A stretch of DNA of 55,343 bases from an uncultured archaeon (GCA_964415445.1 CAYQAE010000003.1:6192-61534), one strand, 5' to 3'; positions 21,687 through 37,502 are shown, numbered from the stretch's first letter. Numbers and translations are program-made. Notes: a model not told the origin generated them from the sequence alone.

Positions 21687-24600
21687 TTATTCTACTATTG
21701 TTGTTTCTTTAAAATCATTTGCTATATTTATACTTTTTTCTGGTACAAAATGAGTCCCATTCCATTCTGCCCATTTTTCTCCAATATATGCACTAGTGCC
21801 CCAATAATATGTTTCATATGAATACTCTAAATCTTCAGGATAAACTGAAAGTGTAAATATATGTCCACCACAAGTACCGTGTGAATTTGTATTAATTGTA
21901 ATATATTCAAAGATTTCTGCTGTTAATAGGAAGTTTTCACTGTAGAATAAACCTGTAGATATATTTAATGTGGTATCTAAAGGTAAGTGTTCCCAACTGA
22001 CAGATATTTCATAATTATTTGGAGGTCCTGAAATAGGATCTGTAACTGTATCTGGTGCATCAACAATTACAACTCCCCTCGATAGTCTAAACCAGTCTTT
22101 TACAGTTATAGTATCTGAGCCTAAATCATATGATATAAAATTATATCCTATCTTTCCTGATTTAATTTCATCATCTGACCAACTTCCCCAGTATTTATAA
22201 GATGGATTAAATGCATATATACTAATGTTTCCGCTACCACTATCTATCTCAATTACTTTTGCACCACTGTTTGCAACATTACTTCCTACCTTTATTGTTC
22301 CATAATACATCTCAATATCTCGATCTATATCATATGAGATATTTACAAAATTAGCTGAACCTGCATATCCTATATATGATGAAGTAAGTGATACTCCTTT
22401 TGCATCGACGTCTGAACCTTCAGTTTCATGTCCAGCTACTTTCCATGTCCAAAGATTTTGTATGGAATAAAATGCAACTTTTTTAGCCCTATTTTCTTTT
22501 ACAATACCAAGCCATTCTTCTGAATCATAGTTGTGGAATCCTTTTTCATCGCTAACTTCTGCGACTCCTTTCCACCATTCATCTGAAAATTCAAATAATG
22601 ATATACCCAAAACTGTACCTTCTGATACCAGCTGATTTATCTTAAGTATATGTTTTTCAAAATATGCTGCTTGGTGTCCTTGGGTGTGGTTTAAATCACT
22701 AGATAGGGTATGCCACCCCGTTTCAGATATGAATATTGGTTTATTTGTATAAATTGATTTGATTGTATTTACGGTATTTACTAAATCATCTGTATTCTCT
22801 GGCCTTGTTTCTCCACCAAAATATGAATAAGCTGCAGTAGATATTATATCTAAAAAGCTAAAGTCATACTGTGAATCTGTGATTATATCTTGTCTTGCTG
22901 AATAGGTAACAGGGTGCGAGTCAACAGTATCAATGTAGCTTTTAATATCACTAATAAGTGAAATAGCATCTTGTTTATTTTGAGAATTTGCTACATATTC
23001 ATTCCCAACACCCCACATCAAAAATGCGGGTTCATCTCCATAATTTGTAATTATATTATCAATAATTCCTTCATATTCACTTGAACTTCCACCATTAACA
23101 TCAATTCCTGCAATTACATAAAGCCCCTTTTCTTTGGCTCTCTCAAATAAAACATCTGCAGCTGTTTTTGAACCATAACTATATTGATGTAGTAAATTTA
23201 TATCATAAATTCTAATTGTATTAGCGCCCATCTCTCTAATTAATTCTAAATCACTTGTAATTACATCTTCTGAGACATATTCATTATCTTGAGGTCTCAA
23301 TCTTCTGGTAAAAGGTGAATAGCAGACTGATTTGGATACAAATTTTTCTCCATCTACATACATTTCCTGTCCTGATATTGATATATCAGGTGCGTCTGTC
23401 AATGAATCTTTTTCTGGAACTCTAGCAATCCATGCTGAAAATTTATAATCACTATAGGCTACATCTATTGATGGTGGTACATAATAATTAAATGTAACTA
23501 ATCCTGAAGGTATATTTTCAGGTAATCTGTATTTTTGTATAAATTCTCCATCAGTTATGTCTCCAGTTTCTGAATCAGATAATGTTAGATAAAGATCATA
23601 AGTACCTTCTGGGATATTAGTCCAACTAATTTCTACAGGATATACTTCTGATGGCCAAACCTCTGTAGGATATGATGTAATTTTAACTCCATCATATGCA
23701 CTAAACCAATACCTATCTTCATATGTGGTAGTTCCTTCTGTCCATCTCAAATAAAAGTATCCGTCTTCAGCAGGAGTATTCCATCCTGATTCTCTTGTAG
23801 GAAGAGTTAGATATTTTTTAATGGTATTTTGGTCGTTTAATCCAGTTAAAGTATTAGCTAATAATTCTTTTCCTGATTTTGTTTTTGCACCATATTCAAG
23901 ATCAATATTTTTACCTGTGAAATCATATGAAAGTTCTATTGGAAAGATTCCACCTCTATAAACTGTTGTAGGTGCGTCTGTTATTGAAGCGCCTGATGCA
24001 CCTACATTTTGTGTATCTGATCCAATTGTAATATCAATTTTACCTGATGAATTATAAGTTATATCCAAATATGCTATCCATCTCTGATCTAGGGAAGGAT
24101 CTATTGGCCCTACATCGACACTACCAAATTTATATGATCCAGTTAGTTCAGCTAAGGAAGTTATTGGATATGATCCTTTTACAGCTCTTGTATCATCCAT
24201 AACAGTTGCCCAGTACGTTCCATCTCCTTGTTGTAGTTCATAATATACAAAGTATGGTTCATCATAGAATGATTTCATATCGCCATAAGTAGAGTCCCAA
24301 TATTCATAGGATTCATTAGAGAGATTATACCACGATACTGTAACAGAAACTACTTCATTTGTAGTAAGTGTTGTAGGTGCAGTTATATTTGGTGCGTTTG
24401 ATGCAATAAATGGACTTTCAAAATATACCATATCTGAAAAGTCAAAAACATACCAATTTGCTTGCTGATTTATTGAATCCCACCCCGCAGATGCAGTAGG
24501 TACCCAAACGTATGTATGGTTATATCCTCCAGCAGGTATGGTTATATAGTTTGGATCACCTATTTGATTTCCATCTGTATCTTTTATACCAAATGCAACC

Positions 24601-35300: not shown

Positions 35301-37502
35301 ATGATAATAATGATTGAATTTAAATTTAAAAGAGATCATGGCAAAAAAAATAATTTTCTTTATTTAGTGATTTTCATGTTTTTTGTATTTAGTTTTTCTT
35401 CTGTTAATTCTTCTACTTTTAATTATACTATCAAAACAGCTGATGAAATTAATTCAGAAATATCTGAGGAAGATTACGATTGGGTAATTTATAACCCTGG
35501 ATCAATTTATAATTCATTTATAAGTCCGGGTATGTGGGGATATGGTCAGGTAGGTGACTTTTATTTAAATTTATATAATAAAACTCTTAATAATACCTAT
35601 ATGAGGTATTTAGATTTTCTTGGTAATTGGTATCTAAAAAATTCTACTCTTGAAAGAAATAAATCAAAATGGATAACTTATATTAATTATGGGAGTCCAA
35701 AATATTCTAATTATTCTGGCTATAATTTAGGTGTTGCAGGCGCCGCTTATTTTTTGATAAAATTAAGCAATTATACTACAAATTTAACTTACTTTGAACT
35801 TGCACAAAACGCTACTAATTATCTTATGGATACTGTCAATTCTACAAATGGGTATCATTGGTTAGCAAGTGAGACAAGTTCTGAGTATTATACCGGTAAA
35901 GGGGCCGGCACAGCTGGTATAGGGGAGTTATTTATTATAATGTATAATATTACAAAAGATTCTTTTTATCTCGATTCTGCAATATCTTGTGCAAATTGGT
36001 TGATAAATGTTTCTAATAACACAACCTATGGTATAAATTGGCCACATAAAGTCTATTCTGGTCAAAAATATAATATTTTAGGCAATGATCATGGTGTTTT
36101 AGGCATTACAAATTTCTTTTTAGATTTATATTATTTAACAAAACATGAAATTTACAAAGATTATATCTTTGGCGGAGCAGAATGGATAATTAATATTACT
36201 TTAAAAGGAGATAATAATTATTATTGGAAAAACCAATATCCTTTTACAAGCGGTTCTTATTATAATTTTACTGGTGGAAATGGCTTATCCGGTGTAGGTA
36301 AATTTTTCAACAGACTCTATAGACTCACAGGAGATTCAATTTATCTACAATATTCTGAAGGTGCTGCTCATTCACTTATAGATTATGCAATCCAAAATGA
36401 AACAGGAAAAAGATGGTATACCTATTATGATGGAGTAACACCATCATATAAAACAAAAATTGGTTTGGGCACAGGTATGGCAGAGATATTTGAATTTTTT
36501 ATGGATTTGTATAATATTACTTCAAATCAAACCTATTTAGAATATGCAAAACATGCAGCAGAGTATATTATGTATTCAGCACAAGTTAATGATCTTAATT
36601 CATATGAAGCAAATATTTTAGAGAGGGCAGGCTCTGCTTTAGCATTTTTGAGATATAATGCAGATAATGATATGGATAATTTAGATATTTGGGATGAAAT
36701 TTTAGTTTATGGCACTGATCCAAATAATCCTGATACAGATAGTGATGGTTTAAACGATTATAAAGAAGCTATAATACATGGTACATCTCCTATAAACAAT
36801 GATACAGATGATGATGGTCTAAATGATTATTTAGAAATTTTTTATGGATATAGTCCATTCTCAAATGATACTGATTCAGATGGTGTAATAGATTCAGTTG
36901 AAGTTTTATACAATTCAGATGGCAGAAAAAAAGATACAGACAACGATGGTCTAAGTGATTATGAAGAGATCTACATTTATAAAACTAGTCCAACTTCACC
37001 TGATTCAGATGGAGATACTTTTAGTGACTATTTTGAAGTAGTTTGGAATTTAGATCCAAATTCAGAAGATACAGACGGTGAAGGTCTAAATGACACTTAT
37101 GAATATTATACTTCTTTAACAGATCCTAGAGTAGCTGATACTGATGGAGATGGCTTAGATGATTATGAAGAATTATTTATTTACAATACTTCACCCCTAG
37201 ATTCAGATTCAGACAATGATGGTCTAAACGATTTTGAAGAAATCCAAAAAGGTACAGATCCAAATAATCCAGATACCGATGGTGACGGAATAATAGATGG
37301 TGCAGATGAAAATCCATTAGAATCTATTACTTTCTACCAAAAGAATGAATCTATTTTTAATTTTTTAATTGGAATCGGCTTAGGTAGCTTAGTCGCACTT
37401 GCAATGTATTTTAAACCAGACAAAAGCAAGCCCAAAGTTAAAAAATCAAAAAAGGAAGAAAAAGTAGAAGCTGAGAAAAAATCAGGTTTGTTTGATCGAT
37501 AA
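35301..37502 (+). CDS. Paralog of the preceding gene: LanC-like toroid repeats + TSP3 repeats + C-terminal TM anchor
   Basis: Starts 1 nt after the upstream stop. Signal-anchor FLYLVIFMFFVFSFSSVNS. Seven G..G.G.F...LY...T....Y..Y....A..LI repeats. TSP3 array. C-terminal FNFLIGIGLGSLVALAMYF plus a K-rich tail. Confidence 0.65.
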   Translation: MIIMIEFKFKRDHGKKNNFLYLVIFMFFVFSFSSVNSSTFNYTIKTADEINSEISEEDYDWVIYNPGSIYNSFISPGMWGYGQVGDFYLNLYNKTLNNTYMRYLDFLGNWYLKNSTLERNKSKWITYINYGSPKYSNYSGYNLGVAGAAYFLIKLSNYTTNLTYFELAQNATNYLMDTVNSTNGYHWLASETSSEYYTGKGAGTAGIGELFIIMYNITKDSFYLDSAISCANWLINVSNNTTYGINWPHKVYSGQKYNILGNDHGVLGITNFFLDLYYLTKHEIYKDYIFGGAEWIINITLKGDNNYYWKNQYPFTSGSYYNFTGGNGLSGVGKFFNRLYRLTGDSIYLQYSEGAAHSLIDYAIQNETGKRWYTYYDGVTPSYKTKIGLGTGMAEIFEFFMDLYNITSNQTYLEYAKHAAEYIMYSAQVNDLNSYEANILERAGSALAFLRYNADNDMDNLDIWDEILVYGTDPNNPDTDSDGLNDYKEAIIHGTSPINNDTDDDGLNDYLEIFYGYSPFSNDTDSDGVIDSVEVLYNSDGRKKDTDNDGLSDYEEIYIYKTSPTSPDSDGDTFSDYFEVVWNLDPNSEDTDGEGLNDTYEYYTSLTDPRVADTDGDGLDDYEELFIYNTSPLDSDSDNDGLNDFEEIQKGTDPNNPDTDGDGIIDGADENPLESITFYQKNESIFNFLIGIGLGSLVALAMYFKPDKSKPKVKKSKKEEKVEAEKKSGLFDR
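36660..37312 (+). repeat. TSP3-type calcium-binding repeat array (coding)
   Basis: DTDSDGLNDYKE, DTDDDGLNDYLE, DTDNDGLSDYEE, DTDGDGLDDYEE, DSDNDGLNDFEE and similar units. Confidence 0.75.

What the first reader, a model, noticed from the sequence alone, without database searches (positions are those of the whole stretch)
21687..37502. Divergently transcribed surface module: giant glycosidase-bearing protein opposite the two toroid/TSP3 proteins
The giant gene (minus strand) and the toroid/TSP3 pair (plus strand) diverge from a single 250-bp intergenic region (32928-33178). That region carries TATA-like boxes in both directions. All three products are predicted to be anchored at the cell surface and heavily N-glycosylated. 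Together they combine catalytic GH domains, putative glycan-binding toroids and Ca-dependent repeat arrays. They occupy about 16 kb and may form one functional unit for matrix remodelling or adhesion.
Basis: inference. Interest (0 to 1): 0.65.

Follow-up and report, generated by a model that had tools for sequence, protein, structure and literature searches.

The report
Archaeal surface glycanase beside stalked toroids
An uncultured archaeon encodes a 3,733-residue membrane-anchored protein with two sugar-cutting domains back-to-back with two stalked ring-shaped surface proteins, but nothing found elsewhere shows that the three work together.

Summary
A 3,733-aa gene on the minus strand and a two-gene operon on the plus strand diverge from a 251-290 bp spacer rich in TATA-like boxes.

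- **Giant protein:** it has an N-terminal membrane anchor and about 16 copies of a roughly 200-aa module made of two beta-sandwiches. It also has two clan GH-A TIM-barrel domains with intact catalytic Glu motifs, closest to GH158, GH2 and GH72.
- **Proteins A and B:** each has a signal peptide, a LanC-like alpha/alpha toroid that lacks the Cys/Cys-His metal site, 7-8 TSP3 calcium-binding repeats and a C-terminal membrane anchor.
- **Glycosylation:** N-glycosylation sequons are 1.8-2.8 times more frequent than composition predicts in these three proteins, but not in the cytoplasmic neighbours.

The "one functional unit" reading is not supported. Across 160 loci carrying GH-domain relatives and the contexts of five toroid relatives, the partners are never co-located. 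All those relatives are distant (33% identity or less). The only close one (58% to A) sits on a 2-kb contig, so the test is weak. The giant has no close homologue in 5.8 billion proteins, and its module has only 29 faint relatives in 1.84 billion.

My verdict is a lineage-specific new arrangement of known domain types. It is of moderate interest, and functional coupling remains unproven.

The parts
21687..32888 (-). Giant gene, 3,733 aa from ATG 32888 (the ORF is open up to TTG 32927). It encodes a membrane-anchored, sequon-rich modular protein with two GH-A domains.
   Evidence: ORF list and translation. The product on record is 3,733 aa. Sequons: 161 observed against 58 expected, z = 14.8.
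32739..32798 (-). The giant's only hydrophobic segment (aa 31-50, TLAAMLISSLLLLGTTFYLN), following a Lys/Arg-rich N-terminus. It is an N-terminal signal anchor or an uncleaved signal peptide.
   Evidence: Kyte-Doolittle scan. No other TM segment occurs in the 3,733 aa.
29301..30254 (-). GH clan-A TIM-barrel domain 1 (aa 892-1209 in TTG numbering), with GNEV acid/base and AETGW nucleophile motifs.
   Evidence: Pfam GH72 5e-13 and GH2_C 1.5e-11. PDB sequence hits to GH2, GH158 and GH72. Invariant N131/E132 and E229 in the family alignment.
22431..23384 (-). GH clan-A TIM-barrel domain 2 (aa 3182-3499), 43% identical to domain 1, with GNEY and SETGW motifs.
23373..29144 (-). Central array of about 9.5 tandem modules of roughly 200 aa (two beta-sandwiches each), 25-43% identical to one another.
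   Evidence: Self-comparison. Iterated HMM finds 16 copies in all. Alignment A4. Model pLDDT 90.4. Fold hits to MG, Ig and transglutaminase-barrel domains. No Pfam match.
30255..32330 (-). N-terminal block of about 4 modules, between the membrane anchor and GH domain 1.
21690..22439 (-). C-terminal 1-1.5 modules after GH domain 2. There is no C-terminal anchor.
32889..33178 (.). Divergent intergenic spacer (290 bp, GC 27%). TATA-like boxes: TTATATAA at 32945-32938 (-); TTTATATA at 33073 and 33093 and TTTTTATA at 33120 (+). SD-like motifs lie before both ATGs.
   Evidence: The sigma-70 scan is not above chance.
33179..35299 (+). Protein A (706 aa). It comprises a signal peptide (aa 5-25), a LanC-like alpha/alpha toroid (about aa 26-425, nt 33254-34453), 8 TSP3 repeats (aa 467-653, nt 34577-35137), and a TM helix (aa 669-689, nt 35183-35245) with a basic tail.
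   Evidence: Pfam LANC_like 1.1e-16 and TSP3_bac 2.8e-26. Model pLDDT 85, pTM 0.86. Fold hits to LanCL1/2 and GCR2, TM 0.60-0.68. Motif and hydropathy scan.
35301..37502 (+). Protein B (733 aa), a paralogue of A with 27% identity in the toroid. It comprises a signal-like N-terminus, a toroid (about nt 35421-36665), at least 7 TSP3 repeats (nt 36732-37307), and a TM helix (nt 37347-37418) with a long basic tail. It starts 1 nt after A's stop codon.

Best explanation
The region holds two adjacent but independently promoted transcription units. Both encode extracytoplasmic glycoproteins of an uncultured, low-GC archaeon from a poorly sampled lineage.

**Unit 1: the giant protein.**
- It is a 3,733-aa protein held in the membrane by an N-terminal anchor.
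- It projects a long N-glycosylated chain of about 32 beta-sandwich domains, arranged as 16 two-domain modules. If extended, the chain would be of the order of 100 nm; this length is inferred.
- The chain carries two retaining clan GH-A beta-glycanase or transglycosylase domains. One lies about a quarter of the way along and one lies near the distal end.
- Both domains keep the acid/base Asn-Glu motif and the nucleophile Glu, so both are probably active on a beta-linked glycan.
- The nearest characterised relatives act on beta-1,3-glucan (GH158, GH72) or on beta-glucuronides and beta-galactosides (GH2).

**Unit 2: the A-B operon.**
- It encodes two old paralogues built the opposite way round.
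- A LanC-like alpha/alpha toroid sits at the tip of a calcium-binding TSP3 stalk, above a C-terminal membrane anchor.
- The toroids have lost the Cys/Cys-His site that many relatives keep, and the family shows no invariant acidic, His or Cys residue. A binding or structural role is therefore more likely than LanC-type catalysis; this too is inferred.

**Relation between the units.** The adjacency is most simply a lineage-specific neighbourhood of surface-protein genes. There is no demonstrated coupling between them.
For: - **Gene layout, starts and promoters:**
- **Anchors and TSP3 motifs:**
- **Sequon enrichment restricted to extracytoplasmic proteins:**
- **GH-A identity.** Pfam GH72 and GH2_C on the excised domains. 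The ten-sequence family profile hits GH158 at 5e-32, hits the 'GH2 catalytic domain' protein 9fz9 at 1.7e-30 over the full length, and also hits GH2 glucuronidases and GH72. N131/E132 and E229 are invariant in both copies.
- **Module.** It folds as two beta-sandwiches with pLDDT 90. Its few remote relatives include repeats in secreted bacterial GH26, GH16 and GH2 proteins.
- **Toroid.** Model pTM 0.86; best overall superpositions are on LanCL1/2 and GCR2. NCBIfam matches lanthipeptide cyclase domains far below the family cut-offs. The Cys-His dyad at A1 columns 428-429 is replaced by Thr-Arg in A and Gly-Asn in B.
- **No co-location elsewhere:**
- **No close homologue of the giant:**
- **Neighbours unrelated.** To the left are a polytopic membrane protein and a small Zn-ribbon protein; to the right is a MazE/PIN pair.
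Against: - No transcript, proteomic or biochemical data exist.
- Anchoring rests on hydropathy only.
- No structure was predicted for the GH domains, and no CAZy (dbCAN) assignment could be made, so the substrate is open.
- The absence of conserved synteny is measured only on relatives of 33% identity or less. The one close relative of A (P0002, 58%) lies on a 2,051-bp contig with no usable flanks. A real but lineage-restricted coupling would therefore have been missed.
- Divergent gene pairs in prokaryotes are often co-regulated, and all three products share location and glycosylation.
- Class III lanthipeptide cyclase domains also lack zinc ligands, so loss of Cys/His does not prove that the toroids are non-catalytic.
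Confidence: 0.6

Rival explanations
1. This is the first reader's view: the three proteins form one surface machine. The stalked toroids would capture or present a glycan, from the cell's own matrix or from the environment. The giant fibre's two GH domains would then cut or transglycosylate it. Both transcription units would be co-regulated from the shared spacer.
For: - The units are divergent and adjacent, with promoters about 175 bp apart.
- All three products are extracytoplasmic and sequon-rich.
- The toroid belongs to the six-hairpin superfamily, which includes many glycan-acting enzymes. Weak Pfam GH88 and GH76 matches and a GH76 fold hit point the same way.
- A relative on L086 clusters two different surface toroids with a 1,008-aa Ig-repeat protein.
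- Bacteroides beta-1,3-glucan loci pair surface GH158/GH16 enzymes with surface glycan-binding proteins (PMC7157763, listed; title and abstract only).
Against: - None of 160 GH-relative loci carries a toroid. None of the contexts of five toroid relatives carries a GH-A domain.
- There is no transporter or sugar-catabolism gene next to the trio.
- No residue-level evidence shows glycan binding by the toroid.
- The palindrome in the spacer is not above chance.
Confidence: 0.2
2. The giant protein is an attachment or attack device aimed at another cell, whether a host, a partner or prey. The beta-sandwich chain would reach the target and the GH domains would breach its wall or capsule. This would resemble the giant proteins proposed to degrade cell walls in predatory Omnitrophota.
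For: - The protein is very long and N-anchored, and one catalytic domain lies near the distal tip.
- Relatives of the GH family occur in Omnitrophota (L007-L009).
- The Omnitrophota giant-gene preprint reports glycosyl hydrolase domains, a GH76-like toroid domain and TSP3/dockerin repeats in giant proteins (10.1101/2023.11.21.568195).
- The TSP3 regions of A and B resemble those of the Myxococcus cohesion and gliding proteins MtsD and CglD.
Against: - No peptidoglycan- or pseudomurein-specific domain is present, and the lifestyle of the organism is unknown.
- The window encodes ordinary free-living functions: UDP-glucose dehydrogenase, a MetE-like protein and a pterin-related enzyme.
- At 3.7 kaa the protein is far smaller than the Omnitrophota proteins, and it shares no detectable homology with them beyond the GH family.
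Confidence: 0.12
3. The toroids are enzymes, not binders. They could be extracellular LanC-like thiol-Michael cyclases or transferases acting on secreted peptides. Alternatively they could be six-hairpin glycosidases or epimerases acting on surface glycans.
For: - The best sequence matches are to lanthipeptide cyclase domains.
- Thermoplasmata-type relatives keep a Cys and a Cys-His dyad, and one sits next to radical-SAM/SPASM genes.
- Fold hits include GH76 and cellobiose 2-epimerases.
- Class III cyclase domains work without zinc ligands (general knowledge).
Against: - A and B lack the Cys-His dyad.
- The 16-sequence alignment has no invariant Asp, Glu, His or Cys. The conserved positions are Gly, Trp, Tyr, Phe and Leu of the repeat scaffold.
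- No precursor-peptide or dehydratase gene is nearby.
Confidence: 0.12

Closest known systems
Clan GH-A retaining glycosidases nearest GH158 (Bacteroides endo-beta-1,3-glucanase, PDB 6PAL/9ORO), the GH2 catalytic TIM barrel, and GH72 beta-1,3-glucanosyltransferases
   Same: - The family profile matches these with E from 5e-32 to 1e-18.
- The Asn-Glu acid/base motif and the nucleophile Glu are conserved in both copies.
- The location is extracellular.
   Different: - Identity to any solved protein is low, and the best genomic relatives are only 29-31% identical.
- Two copies are embedded in a 3.7-kaa chain of beta-sandwich modules. They are not preceded by the GH2 sugar-binding and Ig domains.
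- The family has its own DEWWK / EEWWG motifs.
- CAZy family and substrate were not determined.
Multi-modular secreted bacterial glycoside hydrolases with repeated beta-sandwich accessory domains (the GH26, GH16 and GH2 proteins found here: P0055, P0056, P0074)
   Same: The giant's module has remote matches, E from 1e-13 to 1e-5, to unannotated repeats in these GH-bearing proteins. The logic of repeats plus a catalytic domain is the same.
   Different: - Those proteins are bacterial, carry other GH families and use other anchors such as T9SS tails.
- The similarity covers mostly the first beta-sandwich of the module.
- No function is known for the repeat.
LanC / LanCL / GCR2 alpha/alpha toroids (lanthipeptide cyclase fold)
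   Same: - Seven-repeat alpha/alpha toroid with G-x-A-G-I-G helix-start motifs.
- Pfam LANC_like above its cut-off.
- TM-scores of 0.60-0.68 to LanCL1/2 and GCR2.
   Different: - The proteins are extracellular and membrane-tethered on a TSP3 stalk.
- They lack the Cys-His dyad.
- There is no lanthipeptide gene context.
- Among the 51 other toroid hits, only P0002 also carries TSP3 repeats.
Bacterial TSP3-repeat surface proteins (Myxococcus CglD and MtsD; eukaryotic thrombospondin type-3 repeats)
   Same: D-x-D-x-D-G-x-x-D-x-x-E repeats with a period of about 22-23 aa: 8 in A and at least 7 in B. A calcium-dependent stalk or adhesion role is presumed.
   Different: Only the repeat region matches, with scores far below the family cut-offs. 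Here the repeats act as a spacer between a toroid and a TM helix in an archaeon.
Giant surface proteins of Omnitrophota ('Archaeovorins', preprint 10.1101/2023.11.21.568195)
   Same: The repertoire of part types is similar: glycosyl hydrolase domains, a GH76-like toroid and TSP3/dockerin repeats. A cell-surface role is proposed.
   Different: In Omnitrophota the parts are fused in single proteins of more than 10-30 kaa. Here they are split over three genes in an archaeon. No homology was shown beyond shared domain classes.

Membership tests
Clan GH-A glycoside hydrolase (GH158/GH2/GH72 neighbourhood) | Sequence or profile similarity across the whole (beta/alpha)8 catalytic domain | tested here: met
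   The profile aligns at positions 2-318 to residues 8-316 of 9fz9 (E 1.7e-30). It also hits GH158 at 5e-32, and GH2 glucuronidases and GH72. Pfam GH72 and GH2_C score above their cut-offs on the excised domains.
Clan GH-A glycoside hydrolase (GH158/GH2/GH72 neighbourhood) | Acid/base Glu in an Asn-Glu motif and a nucleophile Glu about 100 residues later | tested here: met
   Copy 1 has GNEV and AETGW; copy 2 has GNEY and SETGW. N131, E132 and E229 are invariant in the 10-sequence family alignment.
Clan GH-A glycoside hydrolase (GH158/GH2/GH72 neighbourhood) | Assignment to one CAZy family, and a demonstrated substrate | not testable with these tools
   Neither dbCAN/CAZy models nor an assay were available. 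The top hits are spread over GH158, GH2 and GH72.
LanC-type lanthionine cyclase / LanCL | Alpha/alpha toroid of seven helical hairpins with GxxG motifs | tested here: met
   Model pLDDT 85 and pTM 0.86, with 14 paired helices. TM 0.60-0.68 to LanCL1/2 and GCR2. Pfam LANC_like scores 60.8 bits against a cut-off of 23.2.
LanC-type lanthionine cyclase / LanCL | Zinc site of two Cys and one His (the CHG motif; from general knowledge of NisC and LanCL1) | tested here: not met
   At the columns where 9-10 of 16 relatives have Cys-His, A has Thr-Arg and B has Gly-Asn. B has a single Cys in the whole protein. Mapping these columns onto the NisC site was done by motif, not by structural superposition.
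LanC-type lanthionine cyclase / LanCL | Genomic association with a precursor peptide and a dehydratase or kinase-lyase | tested here: not met
   No such genes lie within 10 kb on either side.
TSP3 (thrombospondin type-3) calcium-binding repeats | Tandem DxDxDGxxDxxE motifs matching PF18884 | tested here: met
   TSP3_bac E 2.8e-26 for A and 2.1e-22 for B. There are 8 regex matches in A and 7 in B, at a spacing of about 22-23 aa. Calcium binding itself was not tested.
Cellulosome-type dockerin-cohesin assembly | A dockerin module on the enzyme or partner, and cohesin-fold modules on a scaffold protein | tested here: not met
   There is no Dockerin or Cohesin Pfam hit. The top 50 fold matches of the module are MG, Ig, transglutaminase-barrel and pilin folds, not cohesins.
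Polysaccharide-utilisation-type locus (surface glycanase + binding protein + transporter) | Co-located glycanase, glycan-binding protein and dedicated sugar importer or catabolic genes | tested here: not met
   No sugar transporter or catabolic gene adjoins the trio. The nearest ABC system is MacB/FtsX-type and lies 6 kb away. Glycan binding by the toroids is untested.
Conserved divergent gene pair (functional module) | The same partners adjacent in other genomes | tested here: not met
   None of 160 GH-relative loci carries a toroid or the module. None of the contexts of five toroid relatives carries GH-A. All comparisons are at 33% identity or less, except P0002, which has no flanks.

The most novel reading that the evidence does not exclude
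The trio is a lineage-specific archaeal surface apparatus. An N-anchored glycoprotein fibre about 100 nm long carries two beta-glycanase heads. It works together with calcium-stiffened, stalked LanC-like toroids that serve as receptors for glycans or partner cells. This would define a new extracellular role for the LanC fold. It would also define a new GH-associated two-beta-sandwich module family that is almost absent from current databases.
Probability: 0.15. Interest if true: 0.6.

Novelty: new variant of a known kind. Interest (0 to 1): 0.38.

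Why it matters
- **If the giant protein is an active surface glycanase,** it would be an unusual archaeal way of displaying carbohydrate-active enzymes. Two catalytic domains are threaded into a long chain of a domain type that current family libraries do not describe. It comes from a lineage whose housekeeping proteins are at most 58% identical to anything sampled.
- **The stalked, metal-site-less LanC-like toroids** belong to a family of secreted or anchored toroids spread over Thermoplasmata, Asgard archaea and some bacteria. 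I found no description of this family in the literature searches I ran, so its function is an open question.
- **For the specific claim under review,** the practical message is cautionary. Adjacency and shared cellular location are the only links between the two units, and comparative data do not back a functional module.

Tried and rejected
1. **Whole-protein Pfam scan of the giant.** It gave no family. Only the excised GH domains scored, so a null result on a long repetitive protein was not trusted.
2. **Word-indexed homology search with the whole giant.** It returned only the protein itself. This is good evidence against close full-length homologues. It says little about distant GH relatives, which pattern scans then found.
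3. **Genome scan with the toroid alignments.** A1 had no stretch conserved enough to search with. A2 used over-specific patterns and found nothing.
4. **Exact-sequence look-up of protein A's contig.** It is not on record.
5. **Taxonomic placement via KsgA.** It was inconclusive. The best hit is 58% and unnamed, followed by Thermococcales at 46-47%, then Aenigmarchaeota, Hadesarchaea and DPANN at about 40%. An Asgard origin is neither shown nor excluded.
6. **Dockerin-cohesin (cellulosome-like) docking of A and B on the giant.** I rejected this. The repeats are TSP3 repeats, not dockerins, and the module does not resemble cohesin.
7. **Palindrome TTTCCCTAGGAAA in the spacer as a shared operator.** It occurs once, and 14 of 100 shuffles do as well.
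8. **Other scans.** The sigma-70 promoter scan was at chance level. No DNA tandem repeats and no Rfam families were found in the region.
9. **Literature searches.** Searches for 9FZ9, extracellular LanC-like proteins in archaea, and archaeal TSP3 proteins found nothing directly relevant.
10. **Archaeosortase-type C-terminal signal on A and B.** There is no PGF-CTERM-type NCBIfam hit, and the cytoplasmic tails are long, so I take the C-terminal segments as plain TM anchors.

Full report
**1. What is in the sequence**

The window has about 28% GC. It is archaeal by gene content, with DUF655, KsgA and archaeal-type ATPases.

The longest reading of the giant ORF starts at TTG 32927. I take ATG 32888 as the real start, for three reasons:
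- The product on record is 3,733 aa and begins MFRSYKK.
- The only good TATA-like box on that strand (TTATATAA, 32945-32938) lies 11-18 nt upstream of the TTG. A transcript starting about 25 nt downstream of that box would exclude the TTG.
- The ATG is preceded by GAAGGT.

The spacer is therefore 290 bp.

Strict TATA-like octamers occur at 17.2 per kb in the spacer. The figure is 1.8 per kb for the window and 0.7 per kb for the giant CDS. The plus-strand candidates (33073, 33093, 33120) and the minus-strand one lie about 130-180 bp apart. Each is 50-60 nt or more from its ATG. These are two back-to-back promoters, not one shared core.

A and B are separated by a single base, so they are presumably one operon. 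No Rfam family or DNA tandem repeat lies in the region.

**2. The giant protein**

- **Anchor.** Hydropathy shows a single hydrophobic segment (aa 31-50) after a Lys/Arg-rich N-terminus and nothing at the C-terminus. This is an N-terminal signal anchor.
- **Repeat structure.** Self-comparison and an iterated HMM find 16 copies of a roughly 200-aa module, 25-43% identical to one another.
- **Module fold.** The module matches no Pfam or NCBIfam family. With the internal copies as the alignment, it is predicted with pLDDT 90.4 as two tandem beta-sandwiches. Its nearest solved folds are macroglobulin MG domains, transglutaminase barrels and Ig domains. That is a generic fibre-forming fold.
- **Module relatives.** An exhaustive profile search of 1.84 billion representative proteins found only 29 other proteins at E <= 1e-3, the best at 1.5e-13. 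Several of them are large secreted bacterial proteins carrying GH26, GH16 or GH2 domains. The module therefore looks like a rare accessory repeat that travels with glycoside hydrolases.
- **GH domains.** Two 318-aa segments interrupt the array (aa 892-1209 and 3182-3499). They are 43% identical to each other.
  - Excised, they hit Pfam GH72 and GH2_C.
  - A ten-sequence family profile hits GH158 (5e-32) and a full-length 'GH2 catalytic domain' structure, 9fz9 (1.7e-30). It also hits GH2 glucuronidases and GH72.
  - Both copies keep the Asn-Glu acid/base and the E-T-G nucleophile. These positions are invariant in the family.
  - I conclude that both are probably active retaining beta-glycanases or transglycosylases. 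The substrate is open.

**3. The toroid/TSP3 pair**

- **Architecture.** A and B each have a signal-like N-terminus, a toroid of about 400 aa, TSP3 repeats (8 in A, at least 7 in B), and a C-terminal TM helix with a basic tail.
- **Fold.** The toroid scores above the Pfam LANC_like cut-off. It is modelled at pTM 0.86 as an alpha/alpha toroid. It superposes best on LanCL1/2 and GCR2 (TM 0.60-0.68). GH76 and cellobiose 2-epimerases score as weaker alternatives.
- **Relatives.** Fifty-one other proteins in the word-indexed search share the toroid. They come from Thermoplasmata, Helarchaeota, Hodarchaeales and some bacteria. Among the relatives aligned, most have a signal-like N-terminus and a C-terminal anchor, and some bacterial ones carry T9SS tail domains. 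Only one of them, P0002, is close (58% identical) and also has a TSP3 stalk.
- **Metal site.** Nine to ten of the 16 aligned members keep a Cys and a Cys-His dyad. A has Thr-Arg and B has Gly-Asn at the dyad, and B has one Cys in all. No Asp, Glu, His or Cys is invariant in the family. The conserved positions are scaffold Gly, Trp, Tyr, Phe and Leu.
- **Reading.** This favours a binding or structural role over LanC-type catalysis, but it does not exclude catalysis.
- **TSP3 region.** It resembles the TSP3 regions of the Myxococcus proteins CglD and MtsD, with scores far below the family cut-offs.

**4. Surface location and glycosylation**

Sequon counts against shuffled controls:

| Protein | Observed | Expected | z |
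|---|---|---|---|
| Giant | 161 | 58 | 14.8 |
| A | 22 | 12 | 3.4 |
| B | 25 | 9.7 | 5.6 |

The cytoplasmic proteins of the window show observed/expected mostly 0-1.4, none significant. The other enriched ORFs are a MacB-type protein with an extracytoplasmic domain and an unannotated 360-aa ORF at 11174-12256 (z = 7.5). This control makes the 'extracellular and N-glycosylated' reading credible, though it remains a prediction.

**5. Is it one functional unit?**

The flanking genes are unrelated. To the left are a 1,077-aa polytopic membrane protein and a small Zn-ribbon membrane protein. To the right is a MazE/PIN pair.

Contexts of toroid relatives (none with a GH-A domain):
- **Thermoplasmatales SG8-52-3:** the toroid sits among glycan-biosynthesis and radical-SAM genes.
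- **Helarchaeota:** it sits near other large surface proteins.
- **A JGI contig:** it sits among housekeeping genes.
- **A Logan contig (L086):** it lies next to a prenyltransferase-like surface toroid and a 1,008-aa Ig-repeat protein.

Contexts of GH relatives. Pattern scans for the GH domain gave 80 loci from GTDB species representatives and 80 from JGI metagenomes. The best are only 29-31% identical: Hadarchaeales, Promethearchaeota, Omnitrophota and unnamed contigs. In the two archaeal loci examined, the GH genes are 353-772 aa. In a tblastn of all 166 loci (2.3 Mb), no GH locus carries a toroid or the module, and one carries a TSP3 gene.

The data reach only distant relatives, however:
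- The source genome is not among the GTDB representatives. The pattern EMGANAIR would have found it.
- The giant has no close homologue in 5.8 billion proteins.
- The one close relative of A sits on a 2,051-bp contig. A's orthologue there is followed 25 nt later by another gene with a basic-then-hydrophobic N-terminus. This is compatible with an A-B pair but does not demonstrate one.

**6. Mechanism, with shown and inferred steps**

*Shown by sequence or computation:*
- the gene layout;
- the domain identities;
- the intact GH catalytic motifs;
- the missing LanC metal dyad;
- the TSP3 motifs;
- the hydrophobic anchors;
- the sequon bias;
- the lack of conserved synteny.

*Inferred:*
- The giant is a membrane-rooted, glycosylated fibre. 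It has about 32 beta-sandwich domains, which would span of the order of 100 nm if extended.
- That fibre holds one glycanase about a quarter of the way along and one near the tip.
- A and B hold a toroid on a calcium-stiffened stalk.
- Each unit is transcribed from its own promoter.

*Not established:*
- the substrate;
- any interaction between the proteins;
- co-regulation;
- the biological purpose, whether foraging, matrix remodelling, adhesion or attack.

**7. Comparison and novelty**

Every part belongs to a known class: a clan GH-A barrel, a LanC-like toroid, TSP3 repeats and Ig-like beta-sandwiches.

What is new:
- two GH-A domains threaded into an array of a module that the libraries do not describe;
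- a toroid-TSP3-TM architecture seen in only one other protein among the toroid relatives;
- the lineage itself, whose best KsgA match is 58%.

The same kinds of parts have been reported fused in giant Omnitrophota proteins (preprint 10.1101/2023.11.21.568195). That is a parallel, not homology shown here.

I rate this as a new variant of a known kind. Interest is moderate (0.38). The 'single functional module' claim is about 20% likely and currently rests on adjacency alone.

Noticed in passing
window 11174-12256 (+): A 360-aa ORF with no Pfam or NCBIfam match. It has 19 N-glycosylation sequons against 4.9 expected (z = 7.5), so it is probably another surface glycoprotein, 9 kb from the giant gene.
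   Followed up: partly
window 12843-16841 (+): A 1,332-aa protein, extremely rich in Glu and Lys and with a coiled-coil-like sequence. It has no Pfam hit and no sequon enrichment. Its function is unknown.
   Followed up: no
window 17357-20590 (+) and 20921-21547 (+): A 1,077-aa polytopic membrane protein and a 208-aa membrane protein with CxxC zinc-ribbon motifs lie immediately beyond the giant gene's 3' end. Neither has a significant Pfam hit.
   Followed up: no
window 37579-38252 (+); 365-1918 (+): Toxin-antitoxin pairs flank the region. A MazE-like antitoxin plus PIN toxin lies directly after gene B, and an AbiEii toxin with an upstream partner ORF lies at the left end of the window.
   Followed up: no
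window 32962-32974: The palindrome TTTCCCTAGGAAA lies 17-29 nt upstream of the giant gene's TATA-like box. It is unique in the window, but 14 of 100 shuffles also give at least one match, so it is not significant on its own.
   Followed up: yes
L001 10001-12777 (Thermoplasmatales archaeon SG8-52-3, LSSG01000053.1): A secreted LanC-like toroid that retains the Cys and Cys-His positions. It sits next to a radical-SAM/SPASM gene and small ORFs, inside a cluster of glycosyltransferase, aminotransferase and sulfotransferase-like genes. This could be a peptide- or glycan-modification context for the family.
   Followed up: no
L086 12-5765 (Logan SRR7615342 contig): Three consecutive surface-protein genes: a 1,008-aa Ig-repeat protein, a 395-aa prenyltransferase-like alpha/alpha toroid with a signal peptide and C-terminal TM, and a LanC-like toroid with a C-terminal TM. 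Pairs of different anchored toroids may recur in archaea.
   Followed up: partly
window 21687-32927 (method note): The whole 3,746-aa protein gave no Pfam family at E <= 0.01, although its excised GH domains score 5e-13. The collection lists a precomputed family, PF27624.1, for this protein, and I could not resolve that entry in the local Pfam copy.
   Followed up: partly
window 2020-2793 (-): The KsgA/Dim1 orthologue is at most 58% identical to anything in 5.8 billion proteins. The best named hits are Thermococcales, at 46-47%. The source organism belongs to a poorly sampled archaeal lineage, and its genome is not among the GTDB r232 representatives.
   Followed up: partly
window 51015-52478 (-): A 487-aa protein with DUF6513 and pterin-binding DUF4346 domains. 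It may be related to methanopterin or folate biosynthesis, which hints at C1 metabolism in this organism.
   Followed up: no
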